From: Escherichia phage vB_EcoM_G2540
Sequence record: MK327936.1
Direction: 5' to 3' (one strand)
Length of the DNA stretch: 64,000 nt
In this document: one piece after another, positions 12,561 to 20,855 of the stretch
Layout of the letters: each line of letters begins with the position of its first letter
Numbering within the stretch: position 1 is the first letter of the stretch
Notes under the pieces: model-generated
What the model was told of the DNA's origin: nothing
The model's input: the letters and a program-made list of their open reading frames with translations, nothing else
The model's database searches: none
Translations under genes and position numbers: made by a program

Positions 12561-13655
12561 ATGGCAATTGTTAAAGAAATAACTGCTGATTTAATTAAAA
12601 AGTCCGGTGAGAAAATTTCAGCCGGACAGAGTACTAAATCAGAAGTAGGAACTAAAACATACACAGCCCAGTTTCCAACTGGGCGTGCTAGTGGTAATGA
12701 CACTACAGGGGACTTCCAGGTAACAGATCTGTATAAGAATGGATTATTATTTACTGCATACAATATGTCATCTAGGGATTCTGGAAGTCTTAGATCGATG
12801 AGATCTAACTACTCTTCTTCATCTTCGAGTATTTTACGTACAGCCAGAAACACTATTAGTAGTACAGTATCAAAACTATCAAATGGATTAATATCAAATA
12901 ATAATTCAGGAACAATAAGTAAAGCTCCTATCGCAAACATTCTTTTACCGAGATCTAAATCTGATGTTGATACATCATCACATAGATTTAATGATGTTCA
13001 AGAAAGCCTTATCAGTAGAGGCGGAGGTACTGCTACTGGAGTGCTAAGTAATATTGCTTCAACCGCAGTATTTGGGGCACTGGAAAGTATAACACAAGGT
13101 ATAATGGCTGATAATAATGAACAGATTTATACGACAGCCAGAAGTATGTATGGTGGTGCTGAAAATAGAACTAAAGTGTTTACATGGGATTTGACTCCAC
13201 GTTCAACAGAAGATTTAATGGCTATTATTAATATCTATCAATATTTTAACTATTTTTCTTACGGTGAAACGGGTAAATCTCAATATGCTGCTGAAATAAA
13301 GGGGTATTTAGATGATTGGTATCGTTCTACGTTAATTGAACCTTTATCTCCGGAAGATGCAGCTAAAAATAAAACACTATTTGAGAAAATGACATCGAGT
13401 TTAACTAACGTTCTAGTAGTTTCAAACCCGACAATTTGGATGGTGAAAAACTTTGGTGCAACATCTAAGTTTGATGGAAAAACGGAAATATTTGGTCCAT
13501 GTCAAATCCAGAGTATCAGATTTGATAAAACACCTAATGGTAACTTTAACGGATTAGCTATTGCTCCAAACCTCCCTAGTACATTTACTCTCGAGATTAC
13601 TATGAGAGAAATTATCACGTTAAACCGTGCTTCTTTATATGCGGGGGCTTTTTAA
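12561..13655 (+). CDS. 48: Baseplate tail-tube junction protein gp48
   Basis: 364 aa as T4 gp48; AAGGA SD. Confidence 0.85.
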   Translation: MAIVKEITADLIKKSGEKISAGQSTKSEVGTKTYTAQFPTGRASGNDTTGDFQVTDLYKNGLLFTAYNMSSRDSGSLRSMRSNYSSSSSSILRTARNTISSTVSKLSNGLISNNNSGTISKAPIANILLPRSKSDVDTSSHRFNDVQESLISRGGGTATGVLSNIASTAVFGALESITQGIMADNNEQIYTTARSMYGGAENRTKVFTWDLTPRSTEDLMAIINIYQYFNYFSYGETGKSQYAAEIKGYLDDWYRSTLIEPLSPEDAAKNKTLFEKMTSSLTNVLVVSNPTIWMVKNFGATSKFDGKTEIFGPCQIQSIRFDKTPNGNFNGLAIAPNLPSTFTLEITMREIITLNRASLYAGAF

Positions 13656-14620
13656 TGTATTCTTTAGAGGAATTTAATAATCAAGCAATAAACGCAGATT
13701 TCCAACGTAATAATATGTTTAGCTGCGTTTTTGCAACAACTCCATCAACTAAAAGCTCTTCGTTGATAAGTTCAATTAGCAACTTTTCTTATAATAACTT
13801 GGGCCTAAATTCAGATTGGCTAGGATTAACTCAAGGTGATATTAATCAGGGAATTACCACGCTAATTACAGCTGGCACACAAAAACTGATAAGAAAATCA
13901 GGGGTTAGTAAATATCTTATTGGTGCCATGAGTCAACGTACAGTTCAAAGTTTATTAGGCTCATTTACAGTTGGTACATATTTAATTGACTTCTTTAACA
14001 TGGCATATAACTCATCTGGATTGATGATATACTCTGTAAAAATGCCAGAGAATAGATTATCCTATGAAACTGACTGGAACTACAACTCTCCTAATATTCG
14101 TATAACTGGGAGAGAATTAGACCCTTTGGTTATTTCATTTAGAATGGATTCAGAAGCTTGTAACTATCGTGCAATGCAAGACTGGGTTAACGCTGTTCAA
14201 GACCCAGTAACTGGACTGCGTGCTTTGCCACAAGATGTCGAGGCAGATATTCAGGTTAATCTTCATTCTCGCAATGGATTACCTCATACTGCGGTAATGT
14301 TCACCGGATGCATTCCAATGTCAGTGAGCGCTCCTGAATTATCATATGATGGAGATAACCAAATAACTACATTTGATGTTACTTTTGCGTATAGAGTCAT
14401 GCAGGCTGGAGCAGTTGATAGGCAAGCTGCGCTTGAATGGCTTGAATCTGCTGCTATAAATGGTATTCAAAGCGTTCTCGGAAATAGTGGAGGTGTTACT
14501 GGACTATCTAATTCGCTTTCACGACTCAGTAGATTAGGTGGAACTGCAGGAAGCATTTCAAACATTAATACTATGACAGGAATTGTCAATTCGCAAAGTA
14601 AAATATTAGGAGCAATATAA
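13655..14620 (+). CDS. 54: Baseplate tail-tube initiator gp54
   Basis: 321 aa (T4 gp54 320 aa); TAATG overlap with gene 48. Confidence 0.85.
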   Translation: MYSLEEFNNQAINADFQRNNMFSCVFATTPSTKSSSLISSISNFSYNNLGLNSDWLGLTQGDINQGITTLITAGTQKLIRKSGVSKYLIGAMSQRTVQSLLGSFTVGTYLIDFFNMAYNSSGLMIYSVKMPENRLSYETDWNYNSPNIRITGRELDPLVISFRMDSEACNYRAMQDWVNAVQDPVTGLRALPQDVEADIQVNLHSRNGLPHTAVMFTGCIPMSVSAPELSYDGDNQITTFDVTFAYRVMQAGAVDRQAALEWLESAAINGIQSVLGNSGGVTGLSNSLSRLSRLGGTAGSISNINTMTGIVNSQSKILGAI

Positions 14621-14624
14621 CAAT

Positions 14625-14654
14625 GGGGACCTTTCGGTCCCCATATTTTTATTT
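14625..14654 (+). terminator. Rho-independent terminator after gene 54
   Basis: GGGGACC-TTTC-GGTCCCC hairpin followed by ATATTTTTATTT. Confidence 0.7.
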
Positions 14655-14939
14655 ACGGAATGAAATGAAAGCAGCAACTGAAGCAACTAAACTGTCTTCA
14701 ATATAAACTTCAATTTTTACCGGAGCTTCTGACTCAAATTTACCTGTTACTACACCCTGAAAAATACTTTCAGTCTGTTCTGGCTTTGAAAAATTTTCAG
14801 AAGGAAAAATTCCGAACTTTTTATCTGTTCCAAAAATTTTAATAAATTCATCGTAAACTGCTTCATTAAAAGCGTTATCAGCAGGAATAACGCCTTCAAC
14901 TACAAGTTCTTGACCTAAAAAGCGCAAAGAAGATTTCAT
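14649..14939 (-). CDS. Hypothetical early protein, 96 aa
   Basis: ORF with GAGGAA SD, directly downstream of an early promoter. Confidence 0.5.
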   Translation of the reverse strand: MKSSLRFLGQELVVEGVIPADNAFNEAVYDEFIKIFGTDKKFGIFPSENFSKPEQTESIFQGVVTGKFESEAPVKIEVYIEDSLVASVAAFISFRK

Positions 14940-14970
14940 TTTGTGTTCCTCATGTTATGTCAGTAAGACT

Positions 14971-14999
14971 ACTATAACACAACATAAGGAACTTGTAAA
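14971..14999 (-). promoter_or_regulatory. T4 early (sigma70-type) promoter
   Basis: minus strand: -35 TTTACA, 17 bp spacer, TGT-TATAGT extended -10; nearly identical copy upstream of alc. Confidence 0.55.
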
Positions 15000-17057
15000 C
15001 TACATTTTGAACTTTTTAGACATTCCGTTGATGTTAACCAAAGAAGCTAATATTTGAGAAACTTCGTTTTCCTCTTCTTTTGATTCTTCTACAAGGAATT
15101 GATTAAATCCAGCCATTGGACGAACTTCACCAGTTTCCATTAAATGGTCGCCATCATATACTGATTCTTCTAATTGTTCAGAAGGAGGAACGATTGTACC
15201 TTCGATTAGATACTTGTTATAAGCAGTTTCTTTCATAAAGTACGTACTTACTTTATTAATCTTTAGTAAAATTCCGCGCGGTAGAATAACTTCAGCTTCT
15301 GATGGAAATCCTGATAAATGACCTGGAACGATAACTTTGATTCGCTCAGCTCCTTTAATTACCATACCCACGCTAGTTTCAGCATCTTCATTAGCATATG
15401 TAGAATGACTACCCATATGCATCAAATCTTCTGCATCAACGGAATCTTCTCCTTCACCAGAAAATACTGCGCCGGAATCATCTAGAGCCATATAGTTTTT
15501 ACCATGCTCACCGAAGATATTTGGTTTAAGCGATGTGGATACGAAGTTCTTGAAATAAAACATTTTATTTTCAATGTTATGACGCAAAGTTTTAAAGGTA
15601 ACTTCTTGTCCACGGTAAAGCGTAGTTCCTGGAGGAAGAACTGAACCTTTAGCGAATGCAGAATCCAACGTCTCGATGTGCTTAATAGCACGTTCCATAT
15701 ATTCTTCACGGGTAGAATCTGGTTTACCCAAAAGGAACGAGTTCATTTCAACATATGAATCAGCACAATAATCTTCAATTACGTCAGATTCAGCCTGAGT
15801 TAATCCTTTTGGAGTTACTTCGGTGCTTGCGTATTCATACGCCTGGGCGGCAGATTCATTAATCAATTTATAAATGCCATTCATGACGAATTGAATAATA
15901 GCTGTCTTTTCATCTGGCGTGGCTTTAGAACCTTTAACTAAATCATTAATAATTTTCTTAATAACATCAAAGCTATTAGAAATATTAATGTCAGCAAGAT
16001 CGCTTAAAATTTTATCAGTTTTATAATCAAAGAATTCTTTATTCTTTAAATATTCTTGAGAACCTTGATATGTTATATCGCTCTGCAGCTTGATAGATGG
16101 ATCACGTAAACGCGCATGGGCCAATGCGATATGATTTCGGAAGTTTTCTAGTTCATAATCGCTAGATTTAAAACGAGAAGCACTCCTCATACCACCAATA
16201 GCTCCTTTGCTGAAGTTTGAACCAATCTGAATAACGCCAGAGTTCATTGGTCCTTCTGCTTTATACACCGGAACTTTAAATTCAAACTCTTGATATTTCT
16301 TAGCAGCGAAGCTATCACCCTGAAGTGAAGCATCGACAGTAGAATATTGAGCTTGTGCTGCTAATCGACGACTGATTTTAGTTTTCTGAATAACAGCTTG
16401 GTCCGTGCGTTTATCATTTTCTAAAGCAATAGAAGCAGCAACAGCGACAGCTTTAGGAACAGCATTTCCTGTTTTAACGTCTACATAAACATCACCGACC
16501 TTTGATTCAACTTTTGTGAATAACTCAGTTGAAATAGGAGGTACACCTGGAATGTCTTCTAAATTGGCATTTTTACGGTAAACCATAATATATGCGTACT
16601 TTTTATCGTAATCCCAGATTTCCTTTAAAAGAACATATCGACCTGCTCCTTTAGTACGTACTAAACGGTCAGCAATAACTTGCATTTGACGAGCAGCGCC
16701 ATTTGTTTTACTCTTTAGTACGCGAAATAAGCATGCATCAATTTTATACTGTTTCATTGTTTGAAGAGCAGTATCAAAAACAGCATTAATGACGCCAATT
16801 GGATTTCCACCCAAGTTTTTAAGCTTAACTAACGATAATTTCTCGTTGACACCTATCATTACGATATGCATCATTTTATCGCCTGGCTTAACGTTTTTAT
16901 TCGTATCACCGCCAGAGGTGTATGTACAAAATCTAAATCCAGGAAGCACGCTTTCTTCACCGGCTTGAATAGCAAAAATTTGTGGTATTTTATGCTTAGG
17001 ATTTAAGTTAACAACCGGCGCCGAAGCGCCGTCAAATAATTCTGTAATAAGTTCCAT
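15000..17057 (-). CDS. Alt-like ADP-ribosyltransferase, second paralog
   Basis: 685 aa; N-terminus MELITELFD shared with adjacent alt; R-S-E motifs (TLYRGQ, FVSTSL, EAEVILPRG). Confidence 0.8.
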   Translation of the reverse strand: MELITELFDGASAPVVNLNPKHKIPQIFAIQAGEESVLPGFRFCTYTSGGDTNKNVKPGDKMMHIVMIGVNEKLSLVKLKNLGGNPIGVINAVFDTALQTMKQYKIDACLFRVLKSKTNGAARQMQVIADRLVRTKGAGRYVLLKEIWDYDKKYAYIMVYRKNANLEDIPGVPPISTELFTKVESKVGDVYVDVKTGNAVPKAVAVAASIALENDKRTDQAVIQKTKISRRLAAQAQYSTVDASLQGDSFAAKKYQEFEFKVPVYKAEGPMNSGVIQIGSNFSKGAIGGMRSASRFKSSDYELENFRNHIALAHARLRDPSIKLQSDITYQGSQEYLKNKEFFDYKTDKILSDLADINISNSFDVIKKIINDLVKGSKATPDEKTAIIQFVMNGIYKLINESAAQAYEYASTEVTPKGLTQAESDVIEDYCADSYVEMNSFLLGKPDSTREEYMERAIKHIETLDSAFAKGSVLPPGTTLYRGQEVTFKTLRHNIENKMFYFKNFVSTSLKPNIFGEHGKNYMALDDSGAVFSGEGEDSVDAEDLMHMGSHSTYANEDAETSVGMVIKGAERIKVIVPGHLSGFPSEAEVILPRGILLKINKVSTYFMKETAYNKYLIEGTIVPPSEQLEESVYDGDHLMETGEVRPMAGFNQFLVEESKEEENEVSQILASLVNINGMSKKFKM

Positions 17058-17060
17058 GAT

Positions 17061-19154
17061 TTATCCTTGAACGAACTTGTAAGGCATGTTTGTAATATCT
17101 ATGCAAGACGCAATAATTCCAAGAGATGATTCTACTTTCTGTTTAACGTTTGATGAAACAAATGATGCAAAGTCAACTCTGTCTTCTATTTCAATATCAC
17201 CTGTCATTGCAACCAATTCACCAGTTTCCATTAAATGGTCTCCATCATAGATTACCGATTCGGTGAGCTCTTCCGTGGTCATAACTTCAGCTTGAATGAG
17301 TTTTGTATTATTAGATGTTGTTCCGTCATTATTAGAAGCATCAGTTATTTTATTAACTTTGACCATCAATCCACGCGGTAGAATAACTTCAGCTTCTGTT
17401 GCTATTCCGAGACTTCCTGGATATACAACATTAACTTTATGAGCTCCATCAATTGCCCATCCTATTTGAACTTTAACGTATTCAGGATTTTCTTTATACG
17501 CTCTTATTTCGTTTGGATTAATAGTTATTCCTTCTTCATTTTTATCAACTGTTAATTCATTGCGAGCTTCTGGTTCTAAAAGACCAATACCAGCATGTGT
17601 AATTCCAAAACGTCCAAAAATGATAGGAGTTAAAGAAGTAGATACAAAATTTCTGAAGTAGAACACTTTATTTTTAACTAACGCTTCATATATAGGAGCA
17701 GTCATACTTTGAGCACGATAAACTGTAATGCCTTCTGGTATACGGTCACCATTTTCAAAAGCTGAATCTAAGTTATTTATAGCAGATTCAATTTCTTTTT
17801 CACTCATTACATCATATCGTTCTGGATTGTAACGACCTAAAAGAAGATTATTGATGTCAGTATATCCTGAACCGCAATATTCTCTAATGCCACGCTTTTG
17901 TGATGGAGTATATTTAGAACCATCGCGGGCAATAGTAATATCAATCATTGGACCAGCACCAATTCCAGAAAAACTGTAAATCATTCGTTTGAGGAATTTA
18001 GTTTTTGCTGCGTTCCAGGAATTTTTAGTTATTTCTTCCCAGACTTCATCTGGTTGTCCTTTACGATTTTTATTATGATTAGCAAGCCATTTATCTTTAT
18101 AATCTTCAAAGAATTGATTTACAGCTGCTGCGTATTTCTCTAAACATTTTATTGAAGTAGTTGGTTCATTTTTAATTGCATTAAAAATTACTTCTTTAAT
18201 TTTTTCTGAAACTTCACCGACTTGACTCATTGGAAAGAATTTATAATCATAGTGAAGTTCATCTGCCGTTCCTTCAGCAATAATTTTTGCTGCCTTTGTT
18301 TTAGAAGCTAATGAATTAATTCCAATTTTCATTTCTTCTGCTTCGGGAATTAAAGGTGCAGTAGCTGGTTTATTAAAATTAGCTGCTGTAGATTCATACT
18401 TCTGGAATAATTCACTTTCAAATCTAGAAGATTCCAATGACTGACTTTGTGCAATTGCTCTACGGGAAATTTTAACTTTAACGATTACGGCTTGGTCAGA
18501 ACGTTTATCATTTTCTTGTGCAATTGATGCTGCAATTGCCTCATTTTTAGTTACTTGGGCTCCAGTATCTTTATTGATATAAACATCACCAACCTTCGAT
18601 TCAACCTTAGTAAAGAGTTCAGTACTAATTTCTGGAACTCCTGGAATGTCTTCTAGTGATACGTTTTTACGATGTATAAGAATATATGCATACTTTTTAT
18701 CGTAATCCCAGAGTTCCTTAAGAAGGACGTATCTGCCACCTGAACGACTACGGATAAGTCTATCAGCAATAAGTTGAATTTGTCGAGCTTGACCGGCGGT
18801 TTTAGACTTAAGAATGCGTAGCATACATGCATCAATTTTATACTGTTTCATTGTTTGCATTGCTACGGTAAATACTGAATTGATGTAATTAATAGGACTC
18901 GGTCCAAGACCCTTTAATTTAGCAATTGACCCCTTTGCAGTTAATGTAAAAGGAACGATATGCATCATTTTATCGCCCATTTTTAAATCGCGATTAGTAT
19001 CACCTCCAGATGTATAGGTACATAAACGAAAGCCTGGTTGTTCAATTGCATCATCAACATGAACTGAAAAAATTTGTGGTATTTTCTTCTTTGGATTTAA
19101 GTTTGTAATCGGAAGAGTAGTATCTTCGTCAAATAATTCTGTAATGAGTTCCAT
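17061..19154 (-). CDS. alt: Alt ADP-ribosyltransferase
   Basis: 697 aa from second Met (MELITELFD...); R-S-E motifs (TVYRAQ, FVSTSL, EAEVILPRG); late promoter immediately upstream. Confidence 0.85.
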   Translation of the reverse strand: MELITELFDEDTTLPITNLNPKKKIPQIFSVHVDDAIEQPGFRLCTYTSGGDTNRDLKMGDKMMHIVPFTLTAKGSIAKLKGLGPSPINYINSVFTVAMQTMKQYKIDACMLRILKSKTAGQARQIQLIADRLIRSRSGGRYVLLKELWDYDKKYAYILIHRKNVSLEDIPGVPEISTELFTKVESKVGDVYINKDTGAQVTKNEAIAASIAQENDKRSDQAVIVKVKISRRAIAQSQSLESSRFESELFQKYESTAANFNKPATAPLIPEAEEMKIGINSLASKTKAAKIIAEGTADELHYDYKFFPMSQVGEVSEKIKEVIFNAIKNEPTTSIKCLEKYAAAVNQFFEDYKDKWLANHNKNRKGQPDEVWEEITKNSWNAAKTKFLKRMIYSFSGIGAGPMIDITIARDGSKYTPSQKRGIREYCGSGYTDINNLLLGRYNPERYDVMSEKEIESAINNLDSAFENGDRIPEGITVYRAQSMTAPIYEALVKNKVFYFRNFVSTSLTPIIFGRFGITHAGIGLLEPEARNELTVDKNEEGITINPNEIRAYKENPEYVKVQIGWAIDGAHKVNVVYPGSLGIATEAEVILPRGLMVKVNKITDASNNDGTTSNNTKLIQAEVMTTEELTESVIYDGDHLMETGELVAMTGDIEIEDRVDFASFVSSNVKQKVESSLGIIASCIDITNMPYKFVQG

Positions 19155-19179
19155 CATATCCTCTCTAGTGTTTATTCTA

Positions 19180-19187
19180 TTTATAAA
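19180..19187 (-). promoter_or_regulatory. T4 late promoter (TATAAATA) for alt
   Basis: rc of 19180-19187 is TATAAATA, 26 nt upstream of the alt ATG. Confidence 0.6.
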
Positions 19188-19206
19188 ATTAAAGGCCCGA
19201 AGGCCT

Positions 19207-19395
19207 TTAATAATCTATTGGTAAGAGAGTACGATATATTTCAAACTTTGGACCTTTTTCATAGGCATCAAATGTTTCTGTGAATTTATTATAAGCATAT
19301 GCATCTATAAATTCAATCATGATTTGTGATACAGAAGTAGAAACATCTCCACCTTCTTTTTGAGCCACGACAATTGTTTCTAAGTAAGCTTTCAT
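19207..19395 (-). CDS. Hypothetical protein, 62 aa
   Basis: ORF overlapping the ligase stop; followed by GGCC-CGAA-GGCC hairpin. Confidence 0.4.
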   Translation of the reverse strand: MKAYLETIVVAQKEGGDVSTSVSQIMIEFIDAYAYNKFTETFDAYEKGPKFEIYRTLLPIDY

Positions 19396-20855
19396 AAACC
19401 AGTTACCTCATGAAAATCACCAAATACATCCTCGAATGTATTAGCTTTAGTTTTATCTTCACGTAAACGAATCGCAATCGGAAGAAATAATTTAACGTAA
19501 TCAGTGCGGCCATCAGATTTTAACCAACCGTTGCATTCGCACTCTAGAATTTTTCCAATATAATAATTTTGATTTTCCATAATGCGAGTACGATCAAGTT
19601 CATGCGATTTTACACCGGCTTTATCTTTTAAGCCTGAACCAGCATTTACTTTAATTTTTCCACACTCTGATTCAAGAATGAAACCACCTGCTTTAGTAGG
19701 GTCTTTACGGTGAGGATAAATTCCTACAATTTTTAAATCAACATCAATTACTTCTTTAAATTTATAAAGATTTTTTGAACGAGCATTTTCCCATAATCCA
19801 TCGATATTTTTGAGAATAATACCTTCAAGACCTTGGTCAATATACTTTTTGTAAATTACCTTAGCTTCATCTAGGTTATTTACTACTTGGTTTTCAATTA
19901 AAATTACTTTATCATAGCCTGATGTCATTTGTTCTAGTTTAGAAAAACGTACATCATATTTTAAACGAAATGCTGGAAGACCATATATTTCTACTAATGG
20001 AACATAATCCCAGACCTGAAACTTCATGCATTGTGCTTCTTTTTCAGAAATGGTTCCCTTTAAAGATTTATTGGCGATGCCATTAGATGCAGTACGTGAT
20101 TCAGCTACTTCGGCGAATTCTTTAGCTTTACTAATTTCAGGATAAGCATCAAAAAGAAAATCTAGGCCTTCTGGTTCCTTTTCAACTTGCTCATGGTATA
20201 CCAATTCGCCATCAATTAACACACCTTCTGGATGAATCTGGCGGGCTTCAGCAGTCATTTTGATTAACTCTTCCTTAAGAAGATCTAATCCTAGATATTC
20301 ATTGCCAGCTCGTGATAAAAGACGAACATCATCTAATTCATCACCTCTGACTTCGGCAAAGCACCGAGCTCCATCAGCTTTTAACTGGGCAAAGGCTGGA
20401 AATTTGATATTCTTATTAATGCCTTTTTCATCATAAGAACTTGCAAGCATTTGAGGTTGTTCAGGAATTAAACCTGGCCAAACTTTGTTCGCAATAGATA
20501 CTGAAGCGCCACATTCAAGGTCTCGCATCATCACTCGACGCAAAACTTCAACATCATCTTTTTTACCATCGGTGATGTATCCAATTAATTCCTCAATCGC
20601 CGCATTTCCAGTCAATTTCCGAGTAGCTAACGTGAATTCAATGAAGTCAAGCATATCGGTAAGAGTCAACATTCCAAAACTCTGGGTAGCAATACCAGGT
20701 TTAGGCCATTTCTTGATATAATACTGTAACCCACGAGAATAAGTCAGACGATATACTCGTTTAAGCAATTCATTATCTTTATTCTTTTCAAGAATTGCTT
20801 GCTTCTGCTTAGTTGAACCAATAGATGCTATTTCGTTCAGAATTTTAAGAATCAT
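19392..20855 (-). CDS. 30: ATP-dependent DNA ligase gp30
   Basis: 487 aa as T4 gp30; adenylation motif KADGARC (KxDG). Confidence 0.9.
   Translation of the reverse strand: MILKILNEIASIGSTKQKQAILEKNKDNELLKRVYRLTYSRGLQYYIKKWPKPGIATQSFGMLTLTDMLDFIEFTLATRKLTGNAAIEELIGYITDGKKDDVEVLRRVMMRDLECGASVSIANKVWPGLIPEQPQMLASSYDEKGINKNIKFPAFAQLKADGARCFAEVRGDELDDVRLLSRAGNEYLGLDLLKEELIKMTAEARQIHPEGVLIDGELVYHEQVEKEPEGLDFLFDAYPEISKAKEFAEVAESRTASNGIANKSLKGTISEKEAQCMKFQVWDYVPLVEIYGLPAFRLKYDVRFSKLEQMTSGYDKVILIENQVVNNLDEAKVIYKKYIDQGLEGIILKNIDGLWENARSKNLYKFKEVIDVDLKIVGIYPHRKDPTKAGGFILESECGKIKVNAGSGLKDKAGVKSHELDRTRIMENQNYYIGKILECECNGWLKSDGRTDYVKLFLPIAIRLREDKTKANTFEDVFGDFHEVTGL

What the first reader, a model, noticed from the sequence alone, without database searches (positions are those of the whole stretch)
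15000..19187. Tandem pair of Alt-like ADP-ribosyltransferase paralogs under one late promoter
Two large ORFs (697 and 685 aa) separated by 3 nt share the MELITELFD N-terminus, a conserved first ~200 residues and C-terminal R-S-E motifs, but diverge in the middle. As far as I recall T4 has a single alt. A shared N-terminus suggests both could be packaged into the capsid and injected; divergent central regions suggest different host targets.
Basis: partly seen in the sequence, partly recalled or inferred. Interest (0 to 1): 0.55.

Follow-up and report, generated by a model that had tools for sequence, protein, structure and literature searches.

The report
Known alt/alt.-2 ADP-ribosyltransferase gene pair
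The window carries the two adjacent Alt-type ADP-ribosyltransferase genes (alt and full-length alt.-2) already annotated in T2, T6, RB14 and about 400 other T4-like phages; T4 is the exception, keeping only a broken remnant of the second gene, whose function has never been tested.

Summary
Two minus-strand ORFs, 17061-19154 (697 aa) and 15000-17057 (685 aa), lie 3 nt apart. Both begin MELITELFD. They are 68% identical over residues 1-238, 21% in the middle and 35% in the catalytic domain. Both keep the Arg / Ser-Thr-Ser / Glu-x-Glu catalytic motifs. A TATAAATA late promoter sits just upstream of the first gene.

The pair is not new. The same 697+685 aa pair is annotated in T2, T6 and RB14 (as alt and alt.-2), and 401 phage records hold the second gene at 95% identity or more. 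T4 carries a decayed remnant, annotated alt.-1/alt.-2, left by a frameshift and a 1.69-kb deletion.

The second gene is under strong purifying selection (dN/dS 0.03-0.05). It keeps both prohead-protease cleavage motifs mapped by experiment in T4 Alt (ITE-6; LEE-631, aligned with T4 LTE-619). Natural hybrids such as Yersinia phage PST join the Alt N-terminus to the alt.-2 body.

It is therefore most likely a second arginine-specific ADP-ribosyltransferase that is packed in the capsid and injected. Its targets are unknown; I found no functional or proteomic study. Verdict: real, ordinary, already annotated, low-to-moderate interest.

The parts
19178..19185 (-). T4-type late promoter motif TATAAATA upstream of alt
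   Evidence: Conserved in T4, T2, T6, RB14 and SH7. alt is a late gene in T4 (PMC9697503). Promoter use here is inferred.
19191..19208 (-). GC-rich hairpin AAAGGCC-TTCG-GGCCTTT at the end of alt.1, immediately before the late promoter
   Evidence: Read directly from the sequence. Invariant in six phages. Function as a terminator is not tested.
17061..19154 (-). alt: Alt ADP-ribosyltransferase, 697 aa (an alternative ATG at 19157 gives 698 aa)
   Evidence: It is 100% identical to RB14 Alt in the alignment summary and 72% to T4 Alt. PF03496 129.9 bits; phrog_802 E = 2.8e-273.
17058..17060 (-). 3-nt spacer (ATC) between the alt stop codon and the paralog start codon; AAGGA Shine-Dalgarno lies inside the end of alt
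15000..17057 (-). Full-length alt.-2 (second Alt paralog), 685 aa
   Evidence: PF03496 72 bits; phrog_802 E = 2.2e-256; dN/dS 0.03-0.05; AF2 model pLDDT 76 with a C3/Vis-like ART domain.
17715..17717 (-). alt catalytic Arg480 codon (VYR)
   Evidence: Aligned with the YR of CdtA and iota toxin Ia; invariant column. Coordinates computed from the ORF start.
17634..17642 (-). alt S-T-S motif, residues 505-507
17388..17396 (-). alt E-x-E motif, E587-A-E589
15612..15614 (-). alt.-2 catalytic Arg482 codon (LYR)
   Evidence: present in 29 of 29 family members.
15531..15539 (-). alt.-2 S-T-S motif, residues 507-509
15291..15299 (-). alt.-2 E-x-E motif, E587-A-E589
19137..19145 (-). alt N-terminal gp21 cleavage motif I-T-E (residues 4-6)
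   Evidence: The site is mapped in T4 Alt (PMC5694885). The sequence here is identical.
17259..17267 (-). alt C-terminal gp21 cleavage motif L-T-E (residues 630-632), equivalent to T4 LTE-619
   Evidence: Predicted mature protein 70.1 kDa.
17040..17048 (-). alt.-2 N-terminal I-T-E motif (residues 4-6)
15165..15173 (-). alt.-2 L-E-E motif (residues 629-631), aligned with the C-terminal cleavage site of T4 Alt
   Evidence: It lies next to the disordered segment 628-645 of the model. Predicted mature protein 69.3 kDa. Cleavage is inferred.
15020..16709 (-). Segment of alt.-2 that is deleted in T4 (and in AV119)
   Evidence: blastn mapping; junction at 9-nt near-repeats CTAAA(G/A)AGT; the same junction in AV119.
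17774..17781 (-). Second TATAAATA, inside alt (nt 1374 of the CDS), about 720 nt upstream of alt.-2
   Evidence: Present in RB14, T2 and T6 but absent from the T4-type alt. May be chance.
19207..19395 (-). Flanking gene alt.1 (62 aa; PF24647 Phage_blade)
14649..14939 (-). Flanking gene alt.-3 (96 aa; PF17602 DUF5498)

Best explanation
This is the conserved alt / alt.-2 tandem of T-even phages.

Shown or directly read:
- Two ancient paralogs sit between alt.1 and alt.-3.
- Both have the same four-part build: an N-terminal alpha/beta domain of about 235 aa (Pfam PF26846, Tevenvirinae_ADPRT), a variable helical middle, a C3/Vis/VIP2-type R-S-E ADP-ribosyltransferase domain with E-x-E, and an acidic C-terminal tail.
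- Both are intact and under purifying selection.
- T4 lost most of the second copy through a frameshift and a 1.69-kb deletion.

Inferred:
- Both are transcribed late from the TATAAATA upstream of alt. The second is translated from its own Shine-Dalgarno 3 nt after the alt stop codon.
- Both enter the prohead core as pro-proteins. The gp21 protease trims them after ITE-6 and after L-x-E at about residue 631. Both are injected with the DNA.
- There they act as arginine-specific mono-ADP-ribosyltransferases. The upstream copy acts on RNA polymerase alpha Arg265 and other proteins, as T4 Alt does.
- The downstream copy acts on a target set that probably differs at least in part, because its middle region and catalytic-domain loops are only 11-39% identical to Alt.

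My estimates: functional late ART gene about 0.9; packaged and injected about 0.65; target set distinct from Alt about 0.5.
For: - Homology and motifs.
- Selection: dN/dS 0.026-0.046 for alt.-2 among the window, RB14, T2 and T6, with dS 0.11-0.22.
- Prevalence: 401 phage records hold the alt.-2-specific region at 95% identity or more. The 90%-identity cluster has 772 member sequences. The same 697+685 aa pair is in T2 and T6.
- Age: a positional ortholog at 49% identity sits in Dhakavirus WG01, which has three tandem copies.
- Packaging signals: T4 Alt is cut at ITE-6 and LTE-619 to give 68.2 kDa (PMC5694885). My calculation reproduces that mass. The aligned motifs ITE-6 and LEE-631 are present in alt.-2, and (L/I/M)-x-E occurs at both positions in 29 of 29 family members.
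- The model is disordered at 628-645, next to the predicted C-terminal site.
- Natural hybrids of the Alt N-terminus with the alt.-2 body, with three different crossover points, occur in the isolate PST and in two metagenomic contigs. This shows the N-terminal modules are interchangeable.
- Late expression: TATAAATA is conserved and T4 alt is late (PMC9697503).
- T4 remnant.
Against: - There is no direct evidence that alt.-2 protein is made, packaged, cleaved or active. I found no proteomic or biochemical paper, though the searchable library lacks most subscription journals.
- The gene has been lost or fused in several lineages (T4, AV119, PST), so it is dispensable at least on laboratory hosts.
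- The divergent substrate surface is inferred from sequence only. The two enzymes could still share RNA polymerase alpha as their main target.
- Promoter assignment rests on a motif that is not enriched in the window.
Confidence: 0.7

Rival explanations
1. Redundant duplicate. alt.-2 is packaged and active but modifies the same targets as Alt (RNA polymerase alpha Arg265 and others), acting only as extra dose or backup.
For: Both are in the same family, both are E-x-E (arginine-type) enzymes, and they share delivery modules. T4, AV119 and PST each manage with one catalytic body. T4 already has overlapping ARTs: Alt and ModA both hit alpha Arg265 (PMC2988021).
Against: The catalytic domains are only 35% identical, with 11% in the segment between the STS motif and the E-x-E strand, and the middle region is 21% identical. 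The duplication predates the Tequatrovirus/Dhakavirus split, and each copy is separately conserved. Simple redundancy is rarely kept that long under dN/dS of about 0.04.
Confidence: 0.25
2. alt.-2 is made late but not packaged. It acts inside the producing cell, for example on host or phage proteins late in infection, as the non-packaged ModA and ModB act early.
For: Late expression places it in the cell during assembly. No virion proteomics were found.
Against: Both gp21 processing motifs and the 68%-identical N-terminal domain shared with the packaged Alt are retained. In PST, the single hybrid gene at this locus has the alt.-2 body behind the Alt N-terminal ~105 residues.
Confidence: 0.12
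3. alt.-2 is a decaying or catalytically dead copy, as in T4.
For: T4 and AV119 carry only a truncated remnant. The Pfam score is lower than for Alt (72 against 130 bits).
Against: The 685-aa frame is uninterrupted in the window, RB14, T2, T6 and SH7. dN/dS is 0.03-0.05. R, STS and ExE are invariant. The model shows a confident ART fold.
Confidence: 0.03

Closest known systems
T4 Alt (gpAlt), the capsid-packaged, injected arginine-specific mono-ADP-ribosyltransferase
   Same: The upstream gene is its ortholog: same position, same promoter region, N-terminal 238 aa 99% identical, C-terminal 65 aa 97% identical, same R-S-E motifs and the same gp21 sites.
   Different: The central and catalytic region is a different allele: 32% identity over 239-412 and 67% over 413-632, and only 45.9% to T4 by tblastn over residues 239-600. 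The window type is closer to Dhakavirus WG01 ORF200 (67% overall) than T4 Alt is to that ORF (47%).
alt.-2 of RB14, T6 and T2 (annotated 'Alt-like RNA polymerase ADP-ribosyltransferase', 'apparent insertion in alt.-2; also similar to alt', or 'hypothetical protein')
   Same: The downstream gene is this gene: same length (685 aa), same position, 95-100% identity across 401 records.
   Different: Nothing material. No function has been assigned in any record or paper I could find.
T4 ORFs alt.-1 and alt.-2 (61 and 67 aa)
   Same: They are the 5' end of the same gene. The first 54 codons encode MELITELFDGASAPVV... as here. Their PHROG families (23015, 15247) match the window paralog at 2e-40 and 3e-38.
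   Different: In T4 a 1-nt deletion shifts the frame after about codon 54, and a 1.69-kb deletion removes codons from about 117 to the end. The T4 record calls them a partial duplication of alt; the comparison shows they are the remnant of a full-length gene.
T4 ModA and ModB
   Same: R-S-E clade ARTs of the same phage group. ModA also targets alpha Arg265 (PMC2988021; PMC5512222).
   Different: Per those two reviews, Mod proteins are early products that are not packaged. They are shorter and lack the long N-terminal region (my own knowledge).
Bacterial C3 / Vis / VIP2 / iota Ia / CdtA exotoxin ARTs (Pfam PF03496)
   Same: The same catalytic fold and motifs.
   Different: The delivery modules differ (B-component binding or secretion signals, from my own knowledge, against phage capsid packaging). 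The Alt N-terminal domain has no specific solved homolog.

Membership tests
R-S-E clade ADP-ribosyltransferases (Pfam PF03496, Alt/VIP2 family) | Domain match above the curated threshold | tested here: met
   Alt 129.9 bits and alt.-2 72 bits against a gathering score of 23.4.
R-S-E clade ADP-ribosyltransferases (Pfam PF03496, Alt/VIP2 family) | Catalytic Arg (aromatic-R), S-T-S motif and E-x-E motif in that order | tested here: met
   VYR480 / STS505-507 / E587-x-E589 in Alt; LYR482 / STS507-509 / E587-x-E589 in alt.-2. The Arg, both Ser and both Glu are present in all 29 aligned family members, and the Alt YR and ExE align with those of CdtA.
R-S-E clade ADP-ribosyltransferases (Pfam PF03496, Alt/VIP2 family) | ART fold | tested here: met
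   [not shown]
R-S-E clade ADP-ribosyltransferases (Pfam PF03496, Alt/VIP2 family) | NAD-dependent ADP-ribosylation of arginine | not testable with these tools
   Needs an enzyme assay.
T4 Alt-type capsid-packaged, injected head proteins | Late-gene expression (TATAAATA promoter) | tested here: inconclusive
   The motif is present and conserved upstream of alt, and alt.-2 follows after 3 nt with no terminator-like site on the minus strand within or between the two genes. No transcript data.
T4 Alt-type capsid-packaged, injected head proteins | N-terminal propeptide ending in the gp21 motif (I/L)-x-E (ITE-6 in T4 Alt) | tested here: met
   MELITE is identical in both proteins. The site is mapped in T4 (PMC5694885).
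T4 Alt-type capsid-packaged, injected head proteins | C-terminal propeptide cut at L-x-E (LTE-619 in T4 Alt) | tested here: met
   LTE-632 in Alt and LEE-631 in alt.-2 fall in the aligned column, with Glu in 29 of 29 and L/I/M at position -2 in 29 of 29. Only the motif was tested, not cleavage.
T4 Alt-type capsid-packaged, injected head proteins | Shared N-terminal domain (PF26846 Tevenvirinae_ADPRT) | tested here: met
   68% identity over residues 1-238. PF26846 is precomputed on homologs of both types. The local Pfam copy lacks this model.
T4 Alt-type capsid-packaged, injected head proteins | Physical presence in the virion and ejection into the host | not testable with these tools
   No proteomic report found for alt.-2.

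The most novel reading that the evidence does not exclude
Most T-even phages inject two different ADP-ribosyltransferases, not one. The second (alt.-2) would have its own host target or would counter a host defence. It has been overlooked for fifty years because the model phage T4 is a natural null for it. T2 and T6, or T4 with the gene restored, would then show an ADP-ribosylation event immediately after infection that is absent from the T4 literature.
Probability: 0.4. Interest if true: 0.5.

Novelty: already known. Interest (0 to 1): 0.25.

Why it matters
As a genomic feature it does not matter much. The pair is annotated in hundreds of genomes, and alt paralogs were noted in 2006.

The useful point is practical. 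Work on phage ADP-ribosylation has centred on T4, which lacks this gene, whereas T2, T6 and about 400 sequenced relatives keep it under strong purifying selection with its packaging signals intact. That gives a cheap, well-posed experiment: virion proteomics and ADP-ribosylome analysis of T2 or T6 with and without alt.-2.

The locus also offers natural variants that act as ready-made domain swaps and knock-outs: one to three copies, hybrids, and two very different alt alleles.

Tried and rejected
1. **Functional or proteomic literature on full-length alt.-2.** Searches found only Nolan 2006 (paralogs noted) and papers on the neighbouring gene alt.-3. The T4 genome review (PMC150520) is not held.
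2. **Solved structures by sequence.** alt.-2 has no match at E <= 0.01. Alt has only weak CdtA/iota matches. No Alt structure is in the PDB copy.
3. **NCBIfam.** No family for either protein.
5. **Are the metagenomic chimeric proteins P0003-P0006 assembly artefacts?** The exact L007 junction has no close match among isolates (best 88-92%). The isolate Yersinia phage PST has the same kind of single hybrid gene with another crossover point, so the phenomenon is real even if individual contigs remain unverified.
6. **Enrichment of TATAAATA.** Not above chance in the window.


Full report
**What is there**

The window comes from a close relative of phage T4 (genus Tequatrovirus). The region lies between the tail-tube genes gp48 and gp54 on the plus strand (12561-14620) and DNA ligase gp30 on the minus strand (19392-20855).

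The minus strand reads, in order:
- gp30
- a 62-aa ORF (alt.1, PF24647)
- a 697-aa ORF (17061-19154; an upstream in-frame ATG at 19157 would give 698 aa)
- a 685-aa ORF (15000-17057)
- a 96-aa ORF (alt.-3, PF17602)

The two large ORFs are separated by TAA-ATC-ATG, a 3-nt spacer. Both start MELITELFD. BLASTP gives 41% identity, E = 5e-158. By segment, identity is 68% over residues 1-238, 21% over 239-412, 35% over the catalytic domain 413-632 and 42% in the tail.

**Both are intact ADP-ribosyltransferases**

Both proteins match Pfam PF03496 well above threshold and PHROG 802, 'Alt-like RNA polymerase ADP-ribosyltransferase'. The three catalytic elements of the R-S-E clade are present in both:
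- Arg: VYR480 in Alt, LYR482 in the paralog
- S-T-S: 505-507 and 507-509
- E-x-E: 587/589 in both

The catalytic Arg, both Ser and both Glu are present in all 29 aligned family members. The Alt Arg and E-x-E align with those of CdtA.

**The pair is already known**

Megablast of 14600-19450 finds 544 phage records. In 365 of them one match covers at least 80% of the query, and many annotate 'Alt-like RNA polymerase ADP-ribosyltransferase (x2)'.
- RB14 names the two genes alt and alt.-2.
- T6 and T2 carry the same 2094-nt + 2058-nt pair. The T6 record notes 'apparent insertion in alt.-2; also similar to alt'.
- A tblastn with only the paralog-specific part (residues 236-640) finds 401 records at 95% identity or more.
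- The 90%-identity protein cluster has 772 member sequences.
- Nolan et al. 2006 already listed alt paralogs in T4-like phages: partial copies (RB49, 44RR and T4 alt.-1/alt.-2) and a full-length duplication in 44RR (PMC1524935).

**What T4 has**

T4 has one intact alt (682 aa). It is followed by two small ORFs, alt.-1 and alt.-2, which the record describes as a duplication of the first part of alt.

Translating that stretch gives MELITELFDGASAPVV..., the N-terminus of the window's second paralog rather than of Alt. The PHROG families built on those fragments match the paralog better than Alt (2e-40 against 1e-21).

Alignment shows two lesions in T4. One is a 1-nt deletion in an A-run after about codon 54. 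The other is a 1.69-kb deletion corresponding to window 15020-16709, between 9-nt near-repeats CTAAA(G/A)AGT.

Phage AV119 has the same deletion junction but a different inactivating point mutation (Glu6 to stop). The deletion allele is therefore natural and shared, not a laboratory artefact. Phage SH7 combines a T4-type alt with an intact second gene, the likely ancestral state of T4.

The conclusion that the pair is unusual is not.

**The second gene is functional and old**

Pairwise Nei-Gojobori estimates among the window, RB14, T2 and T6 give dN/dS of 0.026-0.046 for the paralog (dS 0.11-0.22) and 0.03-0.08 for alt.

Dhakavirus WG01 has three tandem Alt-like genes at this locus. The one next to alt.-3 is the positional ortholog of the paralog (49% identity), so the duplication predates the split of these genera.

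**How it most likely works**

In T4, alt is a late gene (PMC9697503). Its product is built into the prohead core at about 40 copies and injected with the DNA. [quoted passage not shown]

Mass spectrometry showed that gp21 cuts T4 Alt after ITE-6 and after LTE-619, giving a 68.2-kDa mature protein (PMC5694885). My calculation from the T4 sequence reproduces both the site and the mass.

In the window, Alt has ITE-6 and LTE-632 (mature 70.1 kDa). The paralog has ITE-6 and LEE-631 in the aligned column (mature 69.3 kDa). Across 29 family members the Glu is invariant at both sites and position -2 is L, I or M. The model is disordered at 628-645, next to the predicted C-terminal site.

Upstream of alt, a conserved hairpin is followed by TATAAATA (19178-19185) and a GAGG Shine-Dalgarno. 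The scan found no terminator-like site on the minus strand within or between the two genes.

I therefore infer the following. Both genes are made late, at least partly from one transcript. Both are incorporated as pro-proteins, trimmed at both ends and injected.

The divergent middle region and the loops between the STS motif and the E-x-E strand (11% identity over 521-565) make different substrate preferences plausible. This step is pure inference.

**Natural hybrids support a shared delivery module**

Among the closest database proteins, several had an Alt-type N-terminus joined to the paralog body at different points. One ENA contig shows a single such gene between alt.1 and alt.-3. A shorter Logan contig shows the same kind of gene downstream of alt.1 but ends at the gene.

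The isolate Yersinia phage PST also has a single 686-aa 'alt'. It is 100% Alt-like over about 100 residues and 97-100% paralog-like from about residue 120 onward.

These look like products of unequal crossing-over between the tandem copies. They show that the N-terminal modules are interchangeable, and that a phage can keep the paralog's catalytic body as its only one.

**What remains unknown**

I found no paper or record that tests expression, packaging, activity or targets of full-length alt.-2. The searchable library lacks most subscription journals.

The second TATAAATA inside alt (17774-17781) may or may not be a promoter. The motif is not enriched in the window.

**Verdict**

This is a real, correctly described feature that is ordinary for T-even phages and already annotated. 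T4 is the exception, through gene decay. Novelty: already known. Interest: 0.25. The residual interest is that a conserved, probably injected enzyme has escaped study because the model phage lacks it.

Noticed in passing
window 17355-18440 (alt residues 239-600); L001 (T4); L005 (WG01): alt itself is dimorphic among Tequatroviruses. The N-terminal 238 aa and C-terminal 65 aa are 97-99% identical between the window and T4, but the middle is 32% and the catalytic domain 67% identical. By tblastn about 318 records hold the window-type allele at 90% identity or more, and T4-type phages score about 46%. The window-type Alt is closer to Dhakavirus WG01 ORF200 (67%) than T4 Alt is to that ORF (47%). 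This suggests cassette exchange inside the gene.
   Followed up: partly
L009 3552-5612 (Yersinia phage PST); L007 4001-6061; L008 4001-6061: Single hybrid genes (Alt N-terminus plus alt.-2 body) with three different crossover points (about residues 50, 105 and 225). In PST and L007 the hybrid replaces the tandem pair, between alt.1 and alt.-3; the L008 contig ends at the gene, so its downstream context is not seen. Probably unequal crossing-over. PST annotates the hybrid simply as Alt.
   Followed up: yes
L005 298-6410 (Dhakavirus WG01): Three tandem Alt-like genes (631, 693 and 707 aa) at the same locus, all with YR / S-T-S / E-x-E and an L-N-E motif near the N-terminus.
   Followed up: partly
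window 15020-16709; L001 7034-7454 (T4); L010 4836-5262 (AV119): The T4 alt.-1/alt.-2 ORFs are a pseudogene remnant. They carry a 1-nt frameshift plus a 1.69-kb deletion between 9-nt near-repeats. AV119 shares the deletion junction but has a different inactivating mutation (Glu6 to stop). The T4 record's wording, 'old duplication of the first part of alt', is better read as decay of a full-length paralog.
   Followed up: yes
window 14649-14939 (-), with a promoter-like site at 14971-14999 (-): alt.-3 (96 aa, DUF5498) has its own sigma-70/T4-early-like promoter: TTTACA, 17 nt, TG-TATAGT (10 of 12 matches), starting right after the alt.-2 stop codon. In T4, C-terminal extension mutants of Alt.-3 escape the CmdTAC defence system (PMC11618068).
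   Followed up: partly
window 17774-17781 (-): A second exact TATAAATA inside alt (nt 1374 of the CDS). It is conserved in RB14, T2 and T6 but absent from the T4-type allele. It could be an internal late promoter for alt.-2, or chance.
   Followed up: no
window 14623-14644: A perfect 9-bp-stem hairpin (ATGGGGACC-TTTC-GGTCCCCAT) between the convergent genes gp54 and alt.-3. It scores as a terminator on both strands, though the T-run is good only on the plus strand.
   Followed up: no
[not shown]
   Followed up: yes
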